27,540 nt of DNA. Source: a virus. Its lineage: Duplodnaviria; Heunggongvirae; Uroviricota; Caudoviricetes. Positions 15,104 through 27,540 of this stretch are shown here, piece after piece. The notes beneath the pieces are model-generated. The model had not been told where the DNA came from and made no database searches. It worked only from the letters and a program-made list of their open reading frames with translations. The first letter of the stretch is position 1. Each line of letters starts with the position of its first letter. The stretch lies in IMG/VR virus record IMGVR_UViG_2529292834_000005, positions 1 through 27,540 of that record. One strand, given 5' to 3'. Made by a program: the position numbers and the translations under genes.

Positions 15104-15135
15104 AAAAAATGCCTGCTACCGCAGGCACTTTGTTT
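15104..15135. terminator. Bidirectional rho-independent terminator between convergent Q and the 97-aa gene
   Basis: Seen: 7-bp stem tgcctgc / gcaggca with loop tacc, A6 on one side and a T-rich run on the other. Confidence 0.7.
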
Positions 15136-15427
15136 ACTCTTTAACAAGTGTAGCCCACACAGAGTCTTCAACCTCTTCAACAACAATATTGATGTTGCAA
15201 ATAACATGGTCTTCACTCTCACGAGTATATCTGAATAGCCTTGTTTTTACTTTCCCACCAAACGACTCACGGCCTTCCTTATTGGTAATGTCGACATAAT
15301 CCCCCACATTCGGAAGCATCAGAAGCGTATTGTCTTCAGAAGAACATCCTACAATATCTCCATCGTCAAGAGGTCGCATGTCCCCTTTACACAGGTATTG
15401 AAAGTCATAGCTGTAGGTAGTTTTCAT
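15134..15427 (-). CDS. Hypothetical 97-aa cargo protein between cos and Q
   Basis: ORF only; acidic, no recognisable motif; no counterpart in the P2 map at this position. Confidence 0.55.
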   Translation of the reverse strand: MKTTYSYDFQYLCKGDMRPLDDGDIVGCSSEDNTLLMLPNVGDYVDITNKEGRESFGGKVKTRLFRYTRESEDHVICNINIVVEEVEDSVWATLVKE

Positions 15428-15599
15428 TATTTATCCTTTGAAGGTAACAGTGCTTACATATGTTGGTTCAGTGGCTTAACATGGAGTTAAGGCTCTGAAA
15501 TGAGCATCATTTGAATGTAACAATATATTGCAACATGGACTCGAAAACTTCAAATCAATCTTCCCGACAGAGAGGTGTATTACTTTTACTACCTGTTAC

Positions 15600-15630
15600 G
15601 CGCGCTCGTATCCCCGCCACGCCTGCCCGC
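15600..15630. other. Putative cos site (cohesive-end region)
   Basis: Minus-strand reading GGCGTGGCGGGGA matches the start of the P2/186 19-nt cohesive end as I recall it (P2 GGCGAGGCGGGGAAAGCAC); lies between Q and the A-side genes, as in P2. Confidence 0.5.
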
Positions 15631-15740
15631 TTTTTGTAGCGATTTTCATGCAGGTGCATGACATAAGCAAAAGCCCACCAGAACTGGCGGGCCTCAGCAA
15701 AAACGATCCTCAAACGATCATGCATATTCATGCGGCATAG

Positions 15741-16523
15741 TCATGCAGTGACTTTGGTCTGGTCAGGCGTAGAAAAATCTTCGAAAGATTTATAAGTTTC
15801 AGTATCAAATATTGAAATACTCTCAACCTGATCCATTGGGATTACATGCCTAAAATGATTTAAGTTCAGTGGAGTTGAGTCTGCTGTAATATTTTTGCTA
15901 AGGTAAAGTTCATAGTAACGATGCTGCTCATGGTATCTGAGCGTATCTTTATCACGATAACCACTAATGTATGGTATGAGAGCCAGATGCTGAGTTTCCT
16001 GATGCTCCATCCGAGGAGCAGCTACGTAACCAATGTAAACTTTTCTGGATTTTAGCGTAACAAAGATGAGCTTACCTTCATCTATAGCCTGAACTAACAG
16101 TGACTCAATTCCATCTTGAGCTGCCATCTCGCGATATGCAGATTGACGAATCTCTTCGTTTTCTATTGCTCTTCGCGCATTGTTACCTTGGTCATAAGCA
16201 ATAAACACCGCAAGCAGCATAGACAACACAAAGAACAATGGGTAAGACATTATCTTTACGTCTGTGAGCCATGAATAAAAGTCCACATGTAACTTAGGCC
16301 AAAAATAGCCAAAAACATTGATAACTGAGCTTATAACTAGCAAACTAACGAATGTAACAGCCATCAGAGTAAACCCCTGAATAGCAAACTTACAACCATG
16401 CATAGCTACATAAAAATAGGAATTCCAACCATTACTTCTTGCTTGCCTGATGCGGGACTGGTAATGATTTTCGGTGTACCAGAACCCGCAAACCAGGACG
16501 ACCATGATAACTAAGGGTCCCAT
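15741..16523 (-). CDS. Membrane protein, 260 aa, 3-4 N-terminal TM helices plus about 150-aa soluble domain; hotspot cargo
   Basis: Hydrophobic segments at about residues 3-17, 46-75 and 91-110; starts 3 bp after the 66-aa gene; occupies the slot of P2 tin/old next to cos. Confidence 0.75.
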   Translation of the reverse strand: MGPLVIMVVLVCGFWYTENHYQSRIRQARSNGWNSYFYVAMHGCKFAIQGFTLMAVTFVSLLVISSVINVFGYFWPKLHVDFYSWLTDVKIMSYPLFFVLSMLLAVFIAYDQGNNARRAIENEEIRQSAYREMAAQDGIESLLVQAIDEGKLIFVTLKSRKVYIGYVAAPRMEHQETQHLALIPYISGYRDKDTLRYHEQHRYYELYLSKNITADSTPLNLNHFRHVIPMDQVESISIFDTETYKSFEDFSTPDQTKVTA

Positions 16524-16526
16524 TCC

Positions 16527-16727
16527 TCATCCTTGTCGTTTTGCAGCCAATTCTTCCATTCTGGCACGCATTGATTCACGTACCTGCTTATTGTTCATGT
16601 TTAAGGTCGCCGCACCATTAGCATCTGTGATAATTTTACTATTATCAGACTGTTGCACATCCTGACGGATAACATCCTGCATAATCTTACCCGGTGCAGA
16701 GAGAACTTTGCGCAGAAGTTCAGACAT
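16527..16727 (-). CDS. Small hydrophilic protein, 66 aa, first gene of two-gene cargo cassette
   Basis: Start placed at ATG 16727 with strong RBS AAGGAGG; the ORF-track N-terminal extension is not supported by an RBS. Confidence 0.6.
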   Translation of the reverse strand: MSELLRKVLSAPGKIMQDVIRQDVQQSDNSKIITDANGAATLNMNNKQVRESMRARMEELAAKRQG

Positions 16728-16946
16728 ATTTTCCTCCTTATGCCTCAAACGCCACGGATTGTGGTGCATGGAGGCTGTCATCTTATAATTATAGGACAAC
16801 AAAAATACGAAACTATTCGAAGAGTGCTACGTATTAACCTATTTACATATCACCCTGCAACCAATTTATCCATAACTAACGCCTCGCACGGCTCGTTGCT
16901 CAACCTTGCGAACGGTAAAAACCAGTTTTATCGTCCGCAACGTTCC

Positions 16947-17180
16947 CTAATGTAACCAGCTGTCGTCCTCCCAGACCTGCTGCATGATTTCCATCACTCG
17001 CTTTTTGTCTTCATCCAGTTTTAACCCGCTCAGTTCAACACCATTGGCGCTGCCCTTACGGATACGAATTGCTGTTTTGGGATACAGAGGGCGCAAATTA
17101 CGGTAAAGCTCGGATTCAAGGGCTTCCAGTGTGACCTGGCTAATCTTCAGCTCTTTATCGATCATTATTTCAATGCGCAT
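16947..17180 (-). CDS. DinI-family protein
   Basis: 77 aa, MRIEIMIDKELK...VMEIMQQVWEDDSWLH resembles E. coli DinI from memory (MRIEVTIAK...ETWESADDW). Confidence 0.75.
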   Translation of the reverse strand: MRIEIMIDKELKISQVTLEALESELYRNLRPLYPKTAIRIRKGSANGVELSGLKLDEDKKRVMEIMQQVWEDDSWLH

Positions 17181-17191
17181 ACAGATTCCCT

Positions 17192-17380
17192 TTAACTGGT
17201 AACGTCCATTGACCGGCTGTATTCATGGCTGCGAATTTTCGCCATCAACTCGTCAGTCAGTTCAGACACCCACTGGATAGCCAGCCGCTTTTCTTCATCG
17301 CTGCACTCACTAGCCGCTACAAGCTTGATAAAAAAATCAATACGCTGGAGCTTCAATGACTCCAAAAGATAGTCCTGCAT
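17192..17380 (-). CDS. Small SOS-regulated protein, 62 aa, possible Tum-like antirepressor
   Basis: Start at ATG 17380 with RBS AGGAGG; LexA box about 50 bp upstream; in phage 186 the LexA-controlled tum gene sits at this end of the genome and is DinI-related (recollection). Confidence 0.5.
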   Translation of the reverse strand: MQDYLLESLKLQRIDFFIKLVAASECSDEEKRLAIQWVSELTDELMAKIRSHEYSRSMDVTS

Positions 17381-17427
17381 CTTCCCTCCTATCATTACAC
17401 GGATACACAACAACTGTATATATACCC

Positions 17428-17447
17428 ACTGTTTATATGAACAGTAT
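17428..17447. promoter_or_regulatory. LexA (SOS) box
   Basis: Seen: aCTGTttatatgaACAGta, a perfect CTGT-N8-ACAG with AT-rich spacer, in the promoter region of the 62-aa/DinI-like genes. Confidence 0.65.
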
Positions 17448-17538
17448 AATAGGAACAAAAAAATGTAAAACTGTTTTTTGTCAGTTAATTGGATACACTG
17501 ACACCAGTCAATAAAGCACGAAATGTTAAACAGCAGTC

Positions 17539-19989
17539 TTAGTACCACTGACGCCATTTGTCATCTTCCTGCAGCCGCTGGTTACGGTAAAAAATACGTA
17601 AACCGGCCCCGGATGGAATGCTGCCACCACGCAGAAGCAAATCAATCTCCGATGCACTACCTTCAAACCCTCTGGCAGTCAATTCCGCTTCAAGCTGCAG
17701 ACGCTGCTGCTCCGAAATACTCTGTTTGTAGGCTTTTTTCCGCTTCGGTTTTACCAGTCTCAACCTGGCTGTCAGCTCCCGGCGTTCCTTCTGGCCCATA
17801 TTGTATAGGTAATCCTGCAGTTCCTGCTCATTCATGGTTTTAATATCGGGCAGATCTCCCCCTGTATGGTTCAATTTTTCAACAGGGGGACAGTTATTGC
17901 CACGAGTCCAAGGGGCGCAAGCGCCCTGGTCGGCTGCCGCCTCCTGAATATCAACGGCCTTACGAACCTTTTTCCACTTCATCGCATGCGTGCAAATCTT
18001 GCCCTCTGCAATCGGGGACCAGATGCCATAGATACGGATACCGTGATCGCCGTAGGCGCTCGGTTCGTCGTTAAGCTCATAAGCAGTGCGGACAAGGTGA
18101 TGTTTGCGGGGAACCAGTACACCGCCCTGCTTCATGATGTAGGTGGCAAAGCAACCCGCATCTGCAGCCGCCAGTACCGCATCCAGACGTGGATTATCCA
18201 GTACAGGCGCACCCGCTTTGCGTTCGCCCTGTACTCTCGCCGCCTGACCAGCCAGCAAGCGCAGCTCGCGGTATGCCTGGCGCCCCGGAATACCAAAGAA
18301 ACGAAATTGCTGGACACGGTGCAGTGACGCCCAGGTGCTGACATGCTCGGCGCTGTCACGCAGTGATCTGCCGGTTTCTTTACTGATTTCTTTAGCCAGC
18401 CCGCGCCCGTCGATGTTCTTACTGATGTATTTGGCGATGTAGCTGGTCGGCGTGCCCTTGCGCGGGTTGATTAGCTCAGACTTGAAGCGCGGCCCGGTAT
18501 TGGTACCCAGCTCCTCGCGGTCTTCACGGATGGCAAACTTACGCAGCAGTGCGGTGATGGAACGGCGGTCTTTTTTGCGCATGAAGCACAGAAGATGCCA
18601 GTGCACGGTGCCGTCATGGTGCGGCTCTGCAACGCGAACGCCATACCAGCGCAGCCCGGCCTTGTGCATGGCCTTGCGGAAAGCGGCGAACGTATCAACC
18701 AGGTAGTCACTGCTCTGCCGGACAGTGGCACTGGTCCACTTCGGATTAGGTCTGCCGTTGTTGAGGGTTGCGTGGAAGCGTGACGGGCAGGTGATGGTAT
18801 AAAACACCGCGCAGTCTCCGCGCATTTCCGCGATCAGTTCCAGCCCTTTAACACAGGCCATCATTTCATTACGGCGGTGCGCCGGGTTGCTGTTGCTGGC
18901 GTTCACCACATCTTCCATGTCCAGCGTGTCACCGTCTTCGTTGACCAGCTCATGCGAGCGGAAGAACTCCAGCGATTTGCGGCGCTGCTCGCGTTTGTGG
19001 ATCACAGCTTCATAGCTGACATACGGGGACGCTTTCTTGTTGACCAGGCAGACGGCGCGCAGTTGCTCCTCCCGCCACTCACAGCGCATCTGCCACAATT
19101 TGCGATACCACCAGTCCGCACACAGCATGCGCGCCAGCGATGGTGGGATCAGTTCATAAGGCACTAGCTTGCGGCGACGCTTTTTGCGGCGCAACTTCTC
19201 AAAGGCAGGCGGGATGACCTCAAGGCGCATGGCTTCTGCAGCAACCCTTTCCCATGACTGGCGGATTTCTTCTGGTTTAACATCGTCACTGACAAACAGA
19301 TCACCGCAGGCCGCATCAAGACACATGCTCATATGTGCCGCAACCAGCGTGGACAGACGTTTGACCTGCTCCTGATTCATTTCAGGCAGTACCAGCAGCC
19401 CCTCCAGGCCGTCCTGGCTCGCCATGAACCGGAAAGACGCAGACACCTGGCTGTCACGCACGCGTTCCAGCCGCTCAAGACACGGTCTGATTGTTTCGCG
19501 CAGATAGCGGGAATAAGCTTTAGCCCTGCCCAGGCTATGGAAGTATTTAATTCGCTCCAGCAGAGGCTTGCTGATATGGGCAGGCATGGCGCTTACATCG
19601 GCAATAATCACCAAATCGGGATTAACGCGCTGCTGTTCGCGGGCCATTTTGGCATGGCTAATCAGCCGATCCTGCTCCATTTCACGCTGGACAGGATCGC
19701 GGGATTCATTGAAGAAATAACGTTCCCAAACCTTATCACTCAGCGCCTCACGGCGCAGATGCTCCCGCTCGTTATCCGCAGCGTACAGAGTGATGAGGTT
19801 TGAAAGCGCAGACTCCGGCGCAACTTCCGCCGGGTCCAGATACGGGTTAACCGCTTGTTTGGGCAAATTCCACGAATAAGGCCCGGCAACATTCTCAACG
19901 CTACCGGGATTTTCAGTTACAAACGTGGCTGCAAGACGGCCTGTACTGATTTCCGTCACTCGCAGACTCCCGCATAAACACTGCTGCAC
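17539..19989 (-). CDS. A: Replication initiation endonuclease (P2 gpA-like rolling-circle initiator)
   Basis: 816-aa ORF; contains [14 protein letters not shown] (active-site tyrosine motif type); true start may be internal, since the ORF overlaps the upstream gene by 34 bp. Confidence 0.85.
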
Positions 19990-20966
19990 ACCGCCTTATC
20001 ATTCATGCCTGCAAGCAGGTCGAACTGCACACCGCCACGAGTGGTTAAGGCCCAGTCGCGATAAGACTCAATGCCATAAGCATCAACGGTAATGACTTCA
20101 ATACGTTTTTCAGCACGGCGCGGGTCATGCGTGGACGGGAAGAATGTTGAATTGCCACGCCGTGAACATTCCGCAACCATCCTCTCCCATTCAGCCACAC
20201 GGCGGATTTCGTCAGGCCAGCGCTGGAAAATTTCTGCAAGCTCGGACTTGCGGGCGTGAATACATGGCATACACCCGACACGGCTGCAGCCCTGCAGATA
20301 AAGTGGGTTAGGCTTAATGCCATGGCGTCTGGCAAGGGCGAACACATCTTCATGCAGCCAGTTGAGGATCGGACGATAAACATGAAGGCCCGGTGTATCG
20401 TCAGCGTCTTCCTCCCACTCAGGCAGCAAAGCACGCTCCGGTGATTCCTGCCCACGGACGCCCTGCCAACTGATTACCTCGTCGTACTCTTCCAGAGCCG
20501 GGACAATCACCTGCGTCCGCACTGGCTCATGTTTCAGCTCAAACGTGCAGAAACGGACCTTGGTTGAAGGGAAGCGACCTTTCCACATGCACAAATCAAG
20601 AAATGGGTTGCCAGTTGGTTTAAGGATTTCCAGTGCCCGATGAATGCGTTCTGCTGCTTCATCCGGCGACATACCGCATTCCTGAACCAGAGAAACGGGC
20701 CACTTCTCAGCAATGAATTTACGTTTCCCTTCTATCCGGCGCGTGAAATCGGCTTTAACGCGGATAATCTTCCCCAGCTTTGACTCCAGATAATCCAGAT
20801 ATTCCATCGTCTGGGGGTGTTCATGGCCCGTATCAGCAAAGACAGAAATATGCGGAACATCGTTTTCAATAGCTCTTAGCCATTGTGCAAGACTATCTTT
20901 GCCACCTGAAATACTGATGGTGTTGATAGTGCTGGCAGCGAAGCAGCGCGGATCGATGGCATTCAT
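19956..20966 (-). CDS. PAPS-reductase-like PP-loop protein
   Basis: 336 aa with PP-loop motif ISGGKDS near the N-terminus and cysteine cluster [10 protein letters not shown]; 4-bp overlap with dam. Confidence 0.8.
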
Positions 20967-21811
20967 ACGCGTACCTCAACGGTACGGTCTGGACCTCTGG
21001 CATAATCAACACCAACCCAGCCAACTGATTTTGTGGCGATAATTTCTGCTGCAGATTTACTTTCACCGGCTGCTACGCCCATGCTGCGTTTTGCAGTGAT
21101 ACGATGGCGGGTAAAGCTACGATAAAGCGAACGGGTCAGGGATGTGTCGCTGTTGGACACGATAACTGGATGACCTTCTAATGACCGGCGCTCAAGAATA
21201 GACGCCAGATGATACTGATCGTCATCTGTAAAACCGGCAGTGTGATAACCACTAAATGTGCCATCGTATGGTGGATCACAATAAACAACATCCCCCCCCC
21301 TCAGCAGTGCTAGTGTTTCGTCATAGCTGGCACAGATAAACGTTGCGCGTTGAGTCTTTTCAGCAAAAGCGCGTATTTCATTTTCAGGAAAATACGGATT
21401 TTTATAATTACCATAAGGAACATTAAAATGACCGCTCAAGTTGTAGCGGCACAGCCCACGATAACCATGGCGATTGAGATATAGGAAATATACTGCTTTC
21501 ATGAAATCAGTAATTTCAGAGGAATGATTAAACTCATGCCTAATGTTGTAATAAGCAACTTCTCTATTCGCTATCGCAAAAATACTTTTCGTGCGTGATA
21601 TGAAAGCCTCACAATCAAGGGCGATTTTTTTATAGAGATTGATAAGATCTGGATTAATATCCGCGACAAGATAATGAGGATAGTCTGTCGCCATCATCAC
21701 AGCACAGGAACCCGCGAAAGGTTCAACCAGCCGCGAGCCAGCAGGAAGGTGCTTAATCAATTCCGGCATGATAGCGGTTTTATTTCCCGCCCATTTCAGG
21801 ATAGTGGTCAT
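20963..21811 (-). CDS. dam: DNA adenine methyltransferase (Dam family)
   Basis: 282 aa; motif I region EPFAGSCAV and motif IV DPPY ([10 protein letters not shown]); contains a G9 homopolymer on the coding strand. Confidence 0.9.
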
Positions 21812-22104
21812 ATAGCTCCCCCTGAAATGACATAGGAGAGAGCCTCAAGCGGCGTTAATGAGCGAATAGAAAGAATTACCCATTGCCCTTCCACTGCCAC
21901 AACTTCATTAATCGGCAAAGTGTGGGTAATAACAGCGGCCCATTCCCGACCAGTATATGAACCGTGTTTCCATTCGCAGAGAGAAAGGACATCACCTACT
22001 TTGTAGCCGCGATCATCTTTGCGAAGCTCTGCCTTTTTGCTGCCAGCGACTACGGCATTAAAATACTTAGGTGCAATTTTTATCTGATGGATGCGCATAG
22101 TCAT
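21808..22104 (-). CDS. ASCH-like (DUF3850-type) small protein
   Basis: 98 aa; [34 protein letters not shown] resembles the DUF3850/ASCH pattern as recalled; overlaps dam start by 4 bp. Confidence 0.6.
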
Positions 22105-23926: not shown

Positions 23927-24042
23927 AGTGCAGTATCTCTTAGTTTTGTTTCGATTTATCTCGTTTTATAGGGTTGGGGTTTGTTTTTCAAACCTTGAAT
24001 GAATACTAAGATCACATTTTATATACGTCAAGAGTTTTGCTT
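23927..24042. promoter_or_regulatory. Lysis/lysogeny switch region (pR/pL-type promoters and operators)
   Basis: 116-bp AT-rich region between divergent apl and cI; individual operators and promoters not resolved by eye. Confidence 0.5.
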
Positions 24043-24676: not shown

Positions 24677-25696
24677 ATGACGATCAGAAAACAGCCGAAC
24701 GGAAAATGGTTGTGTGAGTGCTACCCGAACGGGCGCGACGGCAAACGCGTGCGCAAGCAATTTGCGACGAAAGGCGAGGCCATAGCATTCGAAAACTTCA
24801 CCATGGATGAAGTAAACAAAAAGCCATGGCTTGGTGAGAAGGAAGATCGGCGGCGCTTATCAGAAGTGATTGAGCAGTGGCATTCACTCTACGGACAGAC
24901 ACTTGCTGATCCCAAACGCCTGATGGCGAAACTTAACATTATTTGTAATGGCCTTGGAGACCCCATCGCCTCAGAGTTAACTGCTGGCGATTTTACAAAA
25001 TACCGGGAAGCTCGGCTAAAAGGTGAAGTAAAAAATGAAAATGGCGCTCTTATGTCGCCAGTTAAGCCCCGTACTGTAAACCTTGAACAACGCAACCTAT
25101 CATCAGTTTTTGGCACACTGAAGAAGCTAGGCCACTGGTCAGCACCAAACCCACTCGCCGGGCTACCAACATTCAAGATCGCAGAGGGTGAGTTGGCGTT
25201 CCTAGCACCGGAAGAAATTAAGCGCCTGCTGGATGCCTGCGCTGATTCCCAAAGCCCCAGCCTGCTGATGATTGCAAAAATATGCCTTGCCACCGGCGCG
25301 CGATGGAGTGAAGCCGAAAACCTGCAGGGCCACCAGTTATCAAAGTACCGGATCACCTATACCAAGACCAAAGGCAAAAAAAACCGCACAGTACCGATAT
25401 CCCAGAATCTGTATGACGAACTCCCTAAGAACAGAGGCAAGTTATTCACACCTTGTAGAAAATCCTTTGAACGAGCAGTAAAACGGGCTGGTATCGAGCT
25501 GCCTGATGGACAATGCACCCACGTGCTTCGTCATACGTTCGCCAGTTATTTTATGATGAATGGCGGAAACATACTTGTATTAAGAGATATTCTGGGCCAT
25601 GCCGATATAAAAATGACGATGATTTACGCTCACTTTGCCCCTAATCATCTTGAAGATGCGGTGACAAAAAACCCACTTACTATGTTGGAAATATAA
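24677..25696 (+). CDS. int: Tyrosine integrase (P2/186 type)
   Basis: 339 aa; C-terminal catalytic region HVLRHTFAS...LGHADIKMTMIYAHF (R...HxxR...Y pattern); follows cI in the same operon. Confidence 0.9.
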   Translation: MTIRKQPNGKWLCECYPNGRDGKRVRKQFATKGEAIAFENFTMDEVNKKPWLGEKEDRRRLSEVIEQWHSLYGQTLADPKRLMAKLNIICNGLGDPIASELTAGDFTKYREARLKGEVKNENGALMSPVKPRTVNLEQRNLSSVFGTLKKLGHWSAPNPLAGLPTFKIAEGELAFLAPEEIKRLLDACADSQSPSLLMIAKICLATGARWSEAENLQGHQLSKYRITYTKTKGKKNRTVPISQNLYDELPKNRGKLFTPCRKSFERAVKRAGIELPDGQCTHVLRHTFASYFMMNGGNILVLRDILGHADIKMTMIYAHFAPNHLEDAVTKNPLTMLEI

Positions 25697-25698
25697 AA

Positions 25699-26730
25699 AT
25701 GGAAAAAAGCATTTTTACTCTTATTTATTTTTCCCTTTTATTTTTGTGTCTATTTTCTTTTATTAAGTATCGACTTTACGAACTTAATCATAGAAGCTTA
25801 TTTCAACAACCACTATTCTGGGCTGCAATAGCGATACCCTTATTCACATGTCTTTATTTAGGCTCATTTGTCTGGATAAACAAATTAAACTCATTTAGCC
25901 TTACAAGCCACGGCTATCAGCGATTTCTCGACATATCAAAATTACCACTGCTAATTCTTGCATCTGCAGTACCTTTAGTCTCAATCGTTAATAACCTACA
26001 CCGGACCAAACAAACTGAAAAACAAATCTCAGAAGCAGAGAGAAAAAACAGAGTAGACTTATATTACAATCATATGAAGTTCCATCTTGATTTATATAAA
26101 AAGATTGAGTCAAAGAAAATCAGCAGTTACTATCCCATTGAAGAAACTCATAAAGAAGCTGTATATCAACATTTCATCAAACACCCGCAAGAACTTTACA
26201 GAAAAGCCTATCCCTTATCTTCACCAGATGACTCTCAATACTTAAACATCAGTGATAGTTTTATCATAGAACTGCATAAATGTTGGGTTGAAATCAATGG
26301 CAGACTGAAGCAACTATCAGAGAGCGATGTACAGCTAAATCCTGACCAAGAACTTTGTGCTTCAAAGATGAGAATTTTCTTTGGAATAATGAATATTTAT
26401 GAAAAGACTTGCAAGCATCTTTGTTTAGGGGGGTATCACACCCAAAAATCATTCATTTTGAATGATAAATTTGATAAGTATCAAATCTATTCGCCATTTT
26501 ATGACTTTGGAACTATGTACCAGTCTCTGCAGGCTCTGGAGGAAATTACATACGCCTTCCTAGATACATGTAGAAACGAAGAGGTAAATTTATATTTCCC
26601 GTTAGAAGACAAAATCCTCATCTATGGCGAAGGAATTCTTCAAGATTGGTTCAGGTATTCTCAGTTCTTGATTTCTACAGCTTATCAACCCTCCAGGATT
26701 GCGCGTCTACCAATGCCAGTACAAGTATAA
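25699..26730 (+). CDS. AT-rich membrane-anchored cargo protein, 343 aa (3 N-terminal TM helices plus about 245-aa soluble domain)
   Basis: Starts 2 bp after the int stop; hydrophobic segments at about 5-22, 39-59 and 80-97; markedly AT-rich; lies between int and the att core. Confidence 0.75.
   Translation: MEKSIFTLIYFSLLFLCLFSFIKYRLYELNHRSLFQQPLFWAAIAIPLFTCLYLGSFVWINKLNSFSLTSHGYQRFLDISKLPLLILASAVPLVSIVNNLHRTKQTEKQISEAERKNRVDLYYNHMKFHLDLYKKIESKKISSYYPIEETHKEAVYQHFIKHPQELYRKAYPLSSPDDSQYLNISDSFIIELHKCWVEINGRLKQLSESDVQLNPDQELCASKMRIFFGIMNIYEKTCKHLCLGGYHTQKSFILNDKFDKYQIYSPFYDFGTMYQSLQALEEITYAFLDTCRNEEVNLYFPLEDKILIYGEGILQDWFRYSQFLISTAYQPSRIARLPMPVQV

Positions 26731-26908: not shown

Positions 26909-27540
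<632 letters not shown>

What the first reader, a model, noticed from the sequence alone, without database searches (positions are those of the whole stretch)
21292..21300. G9 homopolymer tract inside the dam coding sequence
On the coding strand dam reads CTG AGG GGG GGG GAT (LRGGD), a run of nine G, just upstream of the catalytic DPPY motif. Tracts of this length are prone to slipped-strand mispairing, and phase-variable methyltransferases switching ON/OFF by poly-G length are established in other bacteria. A plus or minus 1 change would truncate Dam before its catalytic motif and would also uncouple the downstream PP-loop gene and A.
Basis: partly seen in the sequence, partly recalled or inferred. 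Interest (0 to 1): 0.5.

Follow-up and report, generated by a model that had tools for sequence, protein, structure and literature searches.

The report
Unstable G-run in prophage Dam gene
A run of nine G inside the DNA-methylase gene of a P2/186-like prophage is real and looks mutation-prone, since near-identical prophages carry G9, a frameshifted G8 or an interrupted GGGGTGGGG, but it is a very recent accident of one small lineage and not a conserved on/off switch.

Summary
The C9 run at 21292-21300 (G9 on the coding strand; CTG AGG GGG GGG GAT = LRGGD, six codons before DPPY) is confirmed. It is the longest homopolymer in the contig, which is E. coli 2741950, APXF01000152.1.

Eleven independent assemblies carry dam at 99% identity or more:
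- 4 have G9.
- 2 have G8, a -1 frameshift giving a 210-aa Dam without DPPY. One of them is otherwise identical to a G9 copy over 6 kb.
- 5 have GGGGTGGGG, which encodes the same residues.

G9 and G4TG4 each track flanking SNPs, so the polymorphism is inherited and not an assembly error. None of about 70 more distant dam loci or 133 related proteins has the tract; they read CAG GCT GGT and similar. The likely path is GCT to GGT to GGG and then slippage.

No G7, G10, G11 or in-frame products exist in a 15-billion-protein collection.

dam sits in the repressor-controlled early lytic operon, chained to its neighbours by ATGA/GTGA overlaps.

Verdict: this is a newly born mutational hotspot that sporadically inactivates an accessory phage Dam. 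The slippage idea is partly supported. An evolved phase-variation switch is not supported. The two G8 calls still need read-level confirmation.

The parts
21292..21300 (-). G9 homopolymer (C9 on + strand), codons R171-G172-G173 of Dam
   Evidence: Also present as G9 in L099, L102 and L103, as G8 in L100 and L105, and as GGGGTGGGG in L082, L104, L106, L107 and L108.
21296..21296 (-). Polymorphic centre base of the tract. It is G on the coding strand here and T in the interrupted allele (GGT versus GGG, both Gly172).
   Evidence: It is the only difference between the window and metagenome scaffold L082 over 1259 bp. See the haplotype table.
20963..21811 (-). dam, a Dam-family (D12 class) DNA N6-adenine methyltransferase of 282 aa
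   Evidence: PF02086 243.9 bits. TIGR00571 300.9 bits. E. coli Dam 2g1p E = 5e-71. PHROG 56.
21266..21277 (-). Catalytic motif IV, DPPY (GAT CCA CCA TAC), aa 179-182
   Evidence: Read directly from the sequence. It aligns to DPPY of E. coli Dam.
21178..21180 (-). TAG stop reached in the -1 frame when the tract is G8. It ends the 210-aa truncated product.
   Evidence: In-silico translation. A 210-aa Dam is called in L100, and that exact protein is in the collection on one contig.
19956..20966 (-). PAPS-reductase-like PP-loop gene (336 aa). Its ATG overlaps the dam stop (ATGA at 20963-20966), and a GAGG Shine-Dalgarno lies 7 nt upstream.
   Evidence: PF01507 119.9 bits. Junction sequence. Partial SspD/BrxP/DndC similarity.
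17539..19959 (-). Replication initiator gene A (806 aa as called). Its GTG start overlaps the PP-loop gene's stop (GTGA).
   Evidence: PF05840 436 bits. Gene call. Junction.
21808..22104 (-). DUF3850/ASCH-like gene directly upstream of dam, joined to it by an ATGA overlap
24003..24031 (-). Promoter-like site (TTGACG-17-TAGTAT) between the CI repressor gene and the early lytic genes. It is the likely pR-type promoter of the operon that contains dam.
   Evidence: consensus match only.

Best explanation
The G9 run is a recently created, lineage-restricted mutational hotspot in an accessory Dam gene of a 186/P2-like prophage. It is not a conserved regulatory device.

**Origin.** In the ancestor the site read AGG GCT GGG (Arg-Ala-Gly).
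1. A C-to-G change gave AGG GGT GGG (GGGGTGGGG).
2. A synonymous T-to-G change at a T flanked by G-runs fused the two G4 blocks into G9. This is a known context for misalignment-type substitutions.

**Consequence.** An uninterrupted G9 is prone to slipped-strand mispairing during replication. At least one -1 slip (G8) has been fixed in some copies.
- The G8 allele truncates Dam at 210 aa, before DPPY, and so abolishes methyltransferase activity.
- It ends translation 211 nt before the overlapping PP-loop gene.

**Expected phenotype.** dam lies in the CI-repressed early lytic operon, so the effect, if any, is on phage DNA methylation and possibly on downstream gene expression during lytic growth. 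It is not on the lysogen's epigenome.

**Shown:** the three alleles, their linkage to flanking SNPs, absence of the tract in all other relatives, the truncated product, and the operon layout.

**Inferred:** the direction and mechanism of the mutations, the rate of slippage, and the neutrality or cost of losing Dam.
For: **Allele spectrum**
- Among alleles at 99% identity or more: 4 x G9, 2 x G8, 5 x G4TG4.
- L099 (G9) and L100 (G8) are identical over 6011 bp apart from the tract.
- The window and L082 differ at only one base in 1259 bp, the tract centre.

**Heritability**
- All four group-B copies (marked by 21236 C>A) have an uninterrupted run.
- All three group-C copies have T.
- The polymorphism is therefore heritable and not random sequencing noise.

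**Ancestral state**
- K. variicola L086 (93% nt identity) reads AGG GCT GGG.
- The closest allele among complete E. coli genomes reads CAG GCT GGT.

**No conservation**
- No relative among the Enterobacterales dam loci scanned (69 after removing duplicates) has a run longer than 5 at this site.
- Only 1 of 134 related proteins, the window's own, reads LRGG.

**Indels concentrate in the uninterrupted run**
- 2 of 6 run-bearing alleles have an indel at the site, against 0 of 69 others. By my calculation, P = 0.005 if the two are independent.

**Literature**
- Base substitutions cluster next to mononucleotide runs, about half are explicable by transient misalignment, and indel rate rises exponentially with run length in E. 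coli (bioRxiv 10.1101/346874).
- A thymine preceded by a G tract is a substitution hotspot (PMC10710837).

**Context**
- The RGG codons align to a variable loop of E. coli Dam.
- dam lies in the early operon downstream of CI, Apl-like and CII genes, and has no promoter-like site of its own.
Against: - The two G8 observations could be one inherited event (L100 and L105 are identical over 4 kb) or homopolymer under-calls. L100 lies on a 4.8-Mb contig that may come from long reads, and the platform of SRR520425 is unknown. Reads could not be inspected.
- G9 occurs on two SNP backgrounds. This needs either recurrent T>G or a short recombination tract, and the two cannot be distinguished here.
- Nothing here measures the slippage rate or excludes selection for variability.
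- The sample of near-identical alleles is small (11).
Confidence: 0.62

Rival explanations
1. This is a genuine phase-variable (contingency) locus. The poly-G tract is maintained because reversible ON/OFF switching of the prophage Dam, and through polarity of the PP-loop gene and A, benefits the phage or lysogen. One possible benefit is bet-hedging between hosts that restrict unmethylated GATC and hosts that restrict methylated GATC.
For: - The tract sits inside the ORF, upstream of the catalytic motif.
- ON (G9) and OFF (G8) alleles both occur in otherwise identical prophages.
- G9 is found on two haplotype backgrounds, which could reflect repeated selection for the uninterrupted run.
- Phase-variable methyltransferases driven by repeat tracts are well established in other bacteria (PMC13076061; PMC10710837).
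Against: - The tract is absent from every relative outside one lineage at 99% identity or more.
- Five of the 11 samples in that lineage carry the interrupted, stable allele.
- Only two lengths were seen. No G7, G10, G11, G6 or G12 products exist in a 15-billion-protein collection.
- The gene is in the CI-repressed lytic operon, with no promoter-like site of its own.
- The hosts (E. coli, Salmonella enterica) have mismatch repair and their own Dam, so switching should be slow and the phenotype small (own knowledge).
Confidence: 0.13
2. The tract is stable and the apparent length variation is technical. G9 versus GGGGTGGGG is a real silent SNP, but the G8 calls are homopolymer under-calls from long-read, 454 or Ion Torrent data. 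No biological frameshift exists.
For: - L100 lies on a 4.8-Mb single contig of a version-2 assembly, typical of long-read closing.
- SRR520425 dates from 2012, when 454 and Ion Torrent data were common (own knowledge).
- The exact 210-aa product is on record from only one contig.
- G-runs are a classic source of indel error.
Against: - G8 appears in two separate data sets, an NCBI assembly and a Logan assembly of a different run, which agree at every other base over 4 kb.
- L100 shows no other indel relative to L099 in 6 kb, although that stretch contains other runs of 6-7 nt.
- Illumina-era Logan and NCBI assemblies of the other samples give a consistent G9.
Confidence: 0.22
3. The G9 itself is an Illumina miscall or assembly artefact (GGT read as GGG), and the true sequence in this strain is GGGGTGGGG.
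For: - The only difference from scaffold L082 in 1259 bp is this base.
- T after GG is a known systematic Illumina error context (own knowledge).
Against: - G9 is reproduced in four independent assemblies from different sources.
- It is perfectly linked to the flanking SNP 21236 in group B (4 of 4), while T is linked to the alternative base in group C (3 of 3).
- L102 reproduces G9 on the window's own haplotype from a different sample.
Confidence: 0.03

Closest known systems
Phase-variable DNA methyltransferases (phasevarions): mod/Type III and some Type I/II genes of Haemophilus, Neisseria, Helicobacter, Campylobacter and Moraxella that switch by repeat-tract slippage
   Same: - A simple-sequence tract sits inside a methyltransferase ORF, upstream of the catalytic motif.
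- A +/-1 change gives a truncated, inactive enzyme.
- Both in-frame and out-of-frame alleles occur in nature.
   Different: - Here the tract is not conserved. It is confined to part of one lineage at 99% identity or more, and an interrupted synonymous allele is equally common.
- Only two lengths were seen.
- The enzyme is an orphan Dam-family (D12, presumably GATC) enzyme on a prophage, in a repressed lytic operon, not a chromosomal mod gene expressed in the cell.
- The hosts are mismatch-repair proficient.
- No regulon or phenotype is known.
Dam methyltransferases of P2/186-like (Felsduovirus and related) prophages, e.g. Fels-2, SopEPhi, RE2010, SEN8, and E. coli Dam
   Same: - The position is the same, between the TraR/DksA-like gene and replication gene A.
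- Nucleotide identity to those phage dam genes is 80-82%.
- There is about 50% aligned similarity to E. coli Dam, with DPPY and the AdoMet-binding motif conserved.
   Different: Those genes have no homopolymer at this site. They read CAG ACG/GCT GGT or similar. This allele also carries a PAPS-reductase-like gene between dam and A, which only some relatives have.
Mononucleotide-run mutational hotspots in E. coli: indels by slippage, and base substitutions next to runs by transient misalignment
   Same: - The T-to-G change extends a G run, and the -1 indel lies inside the resulting run. Both are the two mutation classes reported at such runs (bioRxiv 10.1101/346874; PMC10710837).
   Different: Those data come from laboratory mutation-accumulation lines. 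Here the whole series (GCT, GGT, GGG, -1) is seen as standing natural variation in a prophage gene.

Membership tests
Dam family / D12 class N6-adenine DNA methyltransferase | Score above the curated threshold of the family models | tested here: met
   PF02086 243.9 bits against 22. TIGR00571 300.9 bits against 114.85. The equivalog model NF008152 for host Dam is NOT reached (277.8 against 441), so this is a family member but not the housekeeping Dam orthologue.
Dam family / D12 class N6-adenine DNA methyltransferase | Catalytic motif IV (DPPY) and the N-terminal AdoMet-binding motif present and in frame | tested here: met
   DPPY is at aa 179-182 and EPFAGS at aa 30-35. Both align to E. coli Dam 2g1p/4gol.
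Dam family / D12 class N6-adenine DNA methyltransferase | Methylates adenine in GATC | not testable with these tools
   Inferred only, from homology to E. coli Dam (E = 5e-71).
Simple-sequence contingency locus / phase-variable gene | Repeat tract within the ORF or promoter whose length change switches expression | tested here: met
   The G9 is in the ORF. G8 gives a 210-aa product and G10 a 178-aa product, both lacking DPPY.
Simple-sequence contingency locus / phase-variable gene | Tract-length polymorphism among otherwise near-identical strains or within populations | tested here: inconclusive
   G8 is seen in 2 and G9 in 4 near-identical assemblies. However, the G8 calls may represent one event or a platform error, no other lengths were found, and within-population data are not available.
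Simple-sequence contingency locus / phase-variable gene | Tract maintained (conserved as a tract) across the gene's lineage | tested here: not met
   No tract is present in the other Enterobacterales dam loci scanned or in 133 related proteins. Five of the 11 nearest alleles are interrupted, GGGGTGGGG.
Simple-sequence contingency locus / phase-variable gene | High-frequency, reversible switching (about 1e-5 to 1e-2 per generation) | not testable with these tools
   This needs fluctuation assays or deep sequencing.
Phasevarion (phase-variable methyltransferase controlling a regulon) | Methyltransferase expressed in the growing cell, so that ON/OFF changes genome-wide methylation and gene expression | tested here: inconclusive
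   The gene lies in the early lytic operon downstream of a CI-controlled promoter-like site, with no promoter-like site directly upstream. This argues against expression in the lysogen, but expression was not measured.
186/P2-like prophage early lytic operon | Divergent CI repressor, then Apl/Cox-like, CII, Fil ... replication gene A on one strand, with integrase beyond CI | tested here: met
   The chain of 4-nt start/stop overlaps is.

The most novel reading that the evidence does not exclude
This may be a nascent contingency locus caught at birth. Two point substitutions built a hypermutable G9 in a prophage dam gene, so this prophage lineage would segregate Dam-ON and Dam-OFF virions or lysogens. 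OFF may also lower expression of the translationally chained PP-loop gene and replication gene A. That would be heritable but reversible heterogeneity in phage DNA modification, hedging between hosts with methylation-sensitive and methylation-dependent restriction. It would be the first slippage-driven phase-variable orphan Dam on an enterobacterial temperate phage.
Probability: 0.1. Interest if true: 0.6.

Novelty: new member of a known kind. Interest (0 to 1): 0.3.

Why it matters
If the G8/G9 polymorphism holds up, this is a compact natural example of how a hypermutable homopolymer is born (GCT, then GGT, then GGG) and immediately starts to inactivate its gene.

It also shows that prophage methyltransferase content inferred from annotation can differ between near-identical strains by a single base in a run. 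That matters practically for methylome interpretation and for pseudogene calls in Salmonella and E. coli surveillance genomes.

It does not, on present evidence, reveal a new regulatory system.

Tried and rejected
**Searches that found nothing**
- An exact-flank pattern with a variable-length tract found nothing in JGI metagenome contigs or IMG/VR viral contigs. This allele is simply absent from those collections.
- The INPHARED phage collection and 5,426 complete E. coli genomes hold no allele above about 94% identity around the tract. They gave only outgroup states.
- Looking up the exact A protein found only the window's own contig.
- Looking up the DUF3850 and DUF5347 neighbours returned only distant dam alleles, because those proteins are very widespread.
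- Literature searches for a phase-variable Dam in P2-like prophages, and for the accession numbers of the relevant assemblies and runs, found nothing.

**Look-ups that failed**
- The third contig carrying the exact Dam protein was hidden by de-duplication. It was recovered indirectly, through the PAPS-reductase neighbour, as L102.
- Lee et al. 2012, wanted for quantitative run-length indel rates, is not held. Rates are therefore stated only qualitatively.

**Alternative roles considered and rejected**
- A function on the opposite strand is unlikely, because no ORF of 40 aa or more overlaps the tract on the + strand.
- No promoter- or terminator-like site lies at the tract.
- A single G-run cannot form a G-quadruplex.

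Full report
**1. What is in the window**

The window is the complete 27,540-bp contig APXF01000152.1 of Escherichia coli 2741950 (GCA_000356225.2). It carries most of a 186/P2-like prophage.

On the minus strand, downstream of a divergent CI repressor gene and a promoter-like site at 24003-24031, lie these genes in order:
- an 80-aa Apl/Cox-like gene
- CII
- Fil
- DUF5347
- DUF2732
- a TraR/DksA zinc-finger gene
- a DUF3850/ASCH-like gene
- dam (20963-21811)
- a PAPS-reductase-like PP-loop gene (19956-20966)
- replication gene A (17539-19959)

The integrase is beyond CI on the + strand.

The four junctions from the TraR gene to A are 4-nt start/stop overlaps (ATGA, ATGA, ATGA, GTGA). Each is preceded by a Shine-Dalgarno-like GGAG/GAGG.

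**2. The observation**

Positions 21292-21300 are C9 on the + strand, which is G9 in the dam coding strand. The reading is CTG AGG GGG GGG GAT = L170-R-G-G-D174, five codons before DPPY (aa 179-182, window 21266-21277).

The ORF is a Dam-family enzyme:
- PF02086, 243.9 bits.
- TIGR00571, 300.9 bits against a cut-off of 114.85.
- E. coli Dam crystal-structure sequence, E = 5e-71.

The RGG residues align to a variable loop just before the strand that carries DPPY.

The run is the longest homopolymer in the contig and the only G/C run above 6. Simulated sequences contain a G/C run of 9 or more in 2-14% of windows, depending on the Markov order. E. coli K-12 has only 19 nine-base runs in its whole genome (bioRxiv 10.1101/346874).

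**3. Distant relatives do not have the tract**

- The Enterobacterales dam loci among 80 loci from species-representative genomes, plus others fetched through neighbouring genes, never show a run longer than 5 at this site. They read CAG GCT GGT, CAG ACG GGT, AAG GCG GGG and similar.
- Of 134 related proteins, only the window's own reads LRGG. The rest read LQAG, LQTG, LRAG and so on.
- The closest outgroups read AGG GCT GGG (Klebsiella variicola, 93% nt identity) and CAG GCT GGT (best allele among 5,426 complete E. coli genomes).

The T at the third position of codon 172 is therefore ancestral. The most economical path is GCT to GGT (Ala to Gly), then GGT to GGG (silent).

**4. Near-identical relatives show three alleles**

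Looking up the exact PAPS-reductase protein encoded next to dam returned independent assemblies whose dam is at least 99% identical to the window's. Together with a metagenome scaffold that encodes the identical Dam, they fall into three classes:

| Tract state | Samples |
|---|---|
| G9, in frame | window; L099 (NCBI GCA_010676085.1); L102 (Logan ERR15358139); L103 (Logan SRR1840552) |
| G8, frameshift | L100 (NCBI GCA_006815265.2, on a 4.8-Mb contig, Dam called as 210 aa); L105 (Logan SRR520425) |
| GGGGTGGGG, in frame, same protein | L082 (ENA ERZ28598911); L104; L106; L107; L108 |

Three pairwise comparisons stand out:
- L082 differs from the window at one base in 1259 bp, and that base is the centre of the tract.
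- L099 and L100 differ by only the one-base tract gap in 6011 bp.
- L102 differs from the window by one unrelated SNP. It is therefore an independent confirmation of G9 on the window's own haplotype.

The haplotype table shows linkage:
- The uninterrupted run is perfectly linked to 21236 C>A in group B (4 of 4).
- T is linked to the alternative base in group C (3 of 3).
- The window's background occurs with both G (window, L102) and T (L082).

The G/T difference is therefore heritable and not sequencing noise. It shows all four gametes with site 21452, which implies either a recurrent T>G change or a short recombination tract.

The carriers of the T74A variant are annotated as Salmonella enterica subsp. 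indica and diarizonae.

**5. How far does length variation go?**

Exact-sequence look-ups tested every predicted product for G6, G7, G8, G10, G11 and G12 on both protein backgrounds, in a collection of about 15 billion proteins. Only the G8 product of the Salmonella background was found, on one contig.

Indels at this site occur in 2 of 6 alleles with an uninterrupted run and in 0 of 69 other dam loci. By my calculation the chance that both fall in the group of six is about 0.005 if they are independent. If L100 and L105 are one clone, which is possible because they are identical over 4 kb, the figure is about 0.07.

Dam can also decay in other ways. One Pantoea locus (L041) has a frameshift elsewhere in the gene.

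**6. Mechanism**

Replication slippage in mononucleotide runs, with a rate that rises exponentially with run length, is established for E. coli. So is an excess of base substitutions at bases adjacent to runs, about half of which fit transient misalignment (bioRxiv 10.1101/346874). A thymine preceded by a G tract is specifically cited as a substitution hotspot (PMC10710837).

The series seen here matches those two processes acting in turn: GGGGTGGGG to G9 to G8.

The consequences of G8 are partly shown and partly inferred:
- Shown: the product ends at a TAG at 21178-21180 after 38 out-of-frame residues, without DPPY.
- Shown: translation ends 211 nt before the PP-loop gene's ATG.
- Inferred: loss of termination-reinitiation coupling, and possible polarity on A. 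Each downstream gene has its own Shine-Dalgarno sequence, so this was not tested.

**7. Why this is probably not an evolved phase-variation switch**

- The tract is not conserved, and an equally common sister allele is interrupted (sections 3 and 4).
- Only two lengths occur (section 5).
- dam lies about 2.2 kb inside the repressor-controlled lytic operon, with no promoter-like site directly upstream. The scan found no more sites than in shuffled sequence. A lysogen would therefore not normally express it.
- The hosts have mismatch repair and their own Dam (own knowledge). Both should lower the switching rate and blunt any phenotype.
- Literature searches found no precedent for slippage-controlled Dam in P2-like prophages. 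A recent review places phase-variable methyltransferases mainly in Type I and Type III systems (PMC13076061).

**8. Caveats**

- Raw reads could not be examined.
- The two G8 calls may come from platforms with homopolymer error. Against that, they agree with each other, and L100 has no other indel in 6 kb.
- The sample of near-identical alleles is small (11), and some places were hidden by de-duplication.
- Rates are argued qualitatively because the key quantitative paper is not held.

**9. Verdict**

- The regulatory interpretation (a phase-variable methyltransferase) is not supported.
Interrupted synonymous codons occur in sister prophages, but length variation was also seen.
- The best explanation is a newly arisen mutational hotspot causing sporadic loss of an accessory phage Dam (confidence about 0.6).
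- Interest is modest. It is a tidy natural illustration of the birth and immediate decay of a homopolymer, and a practical warning for annotation, but not a new kind of system.

Noticed in passing
window 19956-20966 (-): The PAPS-reductase-like PP-loop protein chained to dam shows partial similarity to the phosphorothioation and BREX PP-loop proteins SspD (5.7e-23), BrxP and DndC. The module between the TraR gene and A varies among relatives: Dam alone, an RNase_T exonuclease plus Dam, DUF3850 plus Dam, or Dam plus the PP-loop gene. It may be a second DNA-modification or anti-defence cargo gene.
   Followed up: partly
L003:3732-3739 (Pantoea stewartii ATCC 8199, NZ_CP046558.1): An unrelated in-frame G8 run (ATG GGG GGG GCT) lies at a different place in the homologous dam gene, aa ~245. 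Glycine-rich stretches of this gene can evidently throw up long G runs sporadically.
   Followed up: partly
L087/L088:3001-3852 (Salmonella enterica subsp. houtenae, P0016): This Dam allele, on 6 contigs, lacks two residues immediately before motif IV. It reads GDV-CDPPY instead of [10 protein letters not shown], an in-frame 6-nt deletion in GTT GTT TAT TGT. The deletion may impair the enzyme.
   Followed up: no
L041:3001-3776 (Pantoea sp. FN060301): The dam homologue is split by a frameshift near aa 94-103, unrelated to any long homopolymer. This is a background example of dam decay in prophages.
   Followed up: no
window 15134-17557 (-): The cargo region between replication gene A and the portal gene corresponds to the position of tin/old in P2. 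It holds ORFs of 121, 77 (DinI-like), 66, 260 and 97 aa. The 260-aa, 97-aa and 121-aa ORFs have no significant Pfam or PADLOC match, and the 66-aa ORF has no Pfam match.
   Followed up: partly
window 25699-26730 (+) and 26978-27376 (+): A 343-aa ORF with no Pfam or PADLOC match starts 2 nt after the integrase stop. Beyond it is an ORF with an Arm-DNA-binding domain, possibly the start of a second, P4-type integrase, shortly before the contig end. No tRNA gene is present in the window.
   Followed up: partly
window 25376-25383 (+): An A8 run, the second-longest homopolymer in the contig, lies inside the integrase coding sequence 24677-25696. It was not compared across relatives.
   Followed up: no
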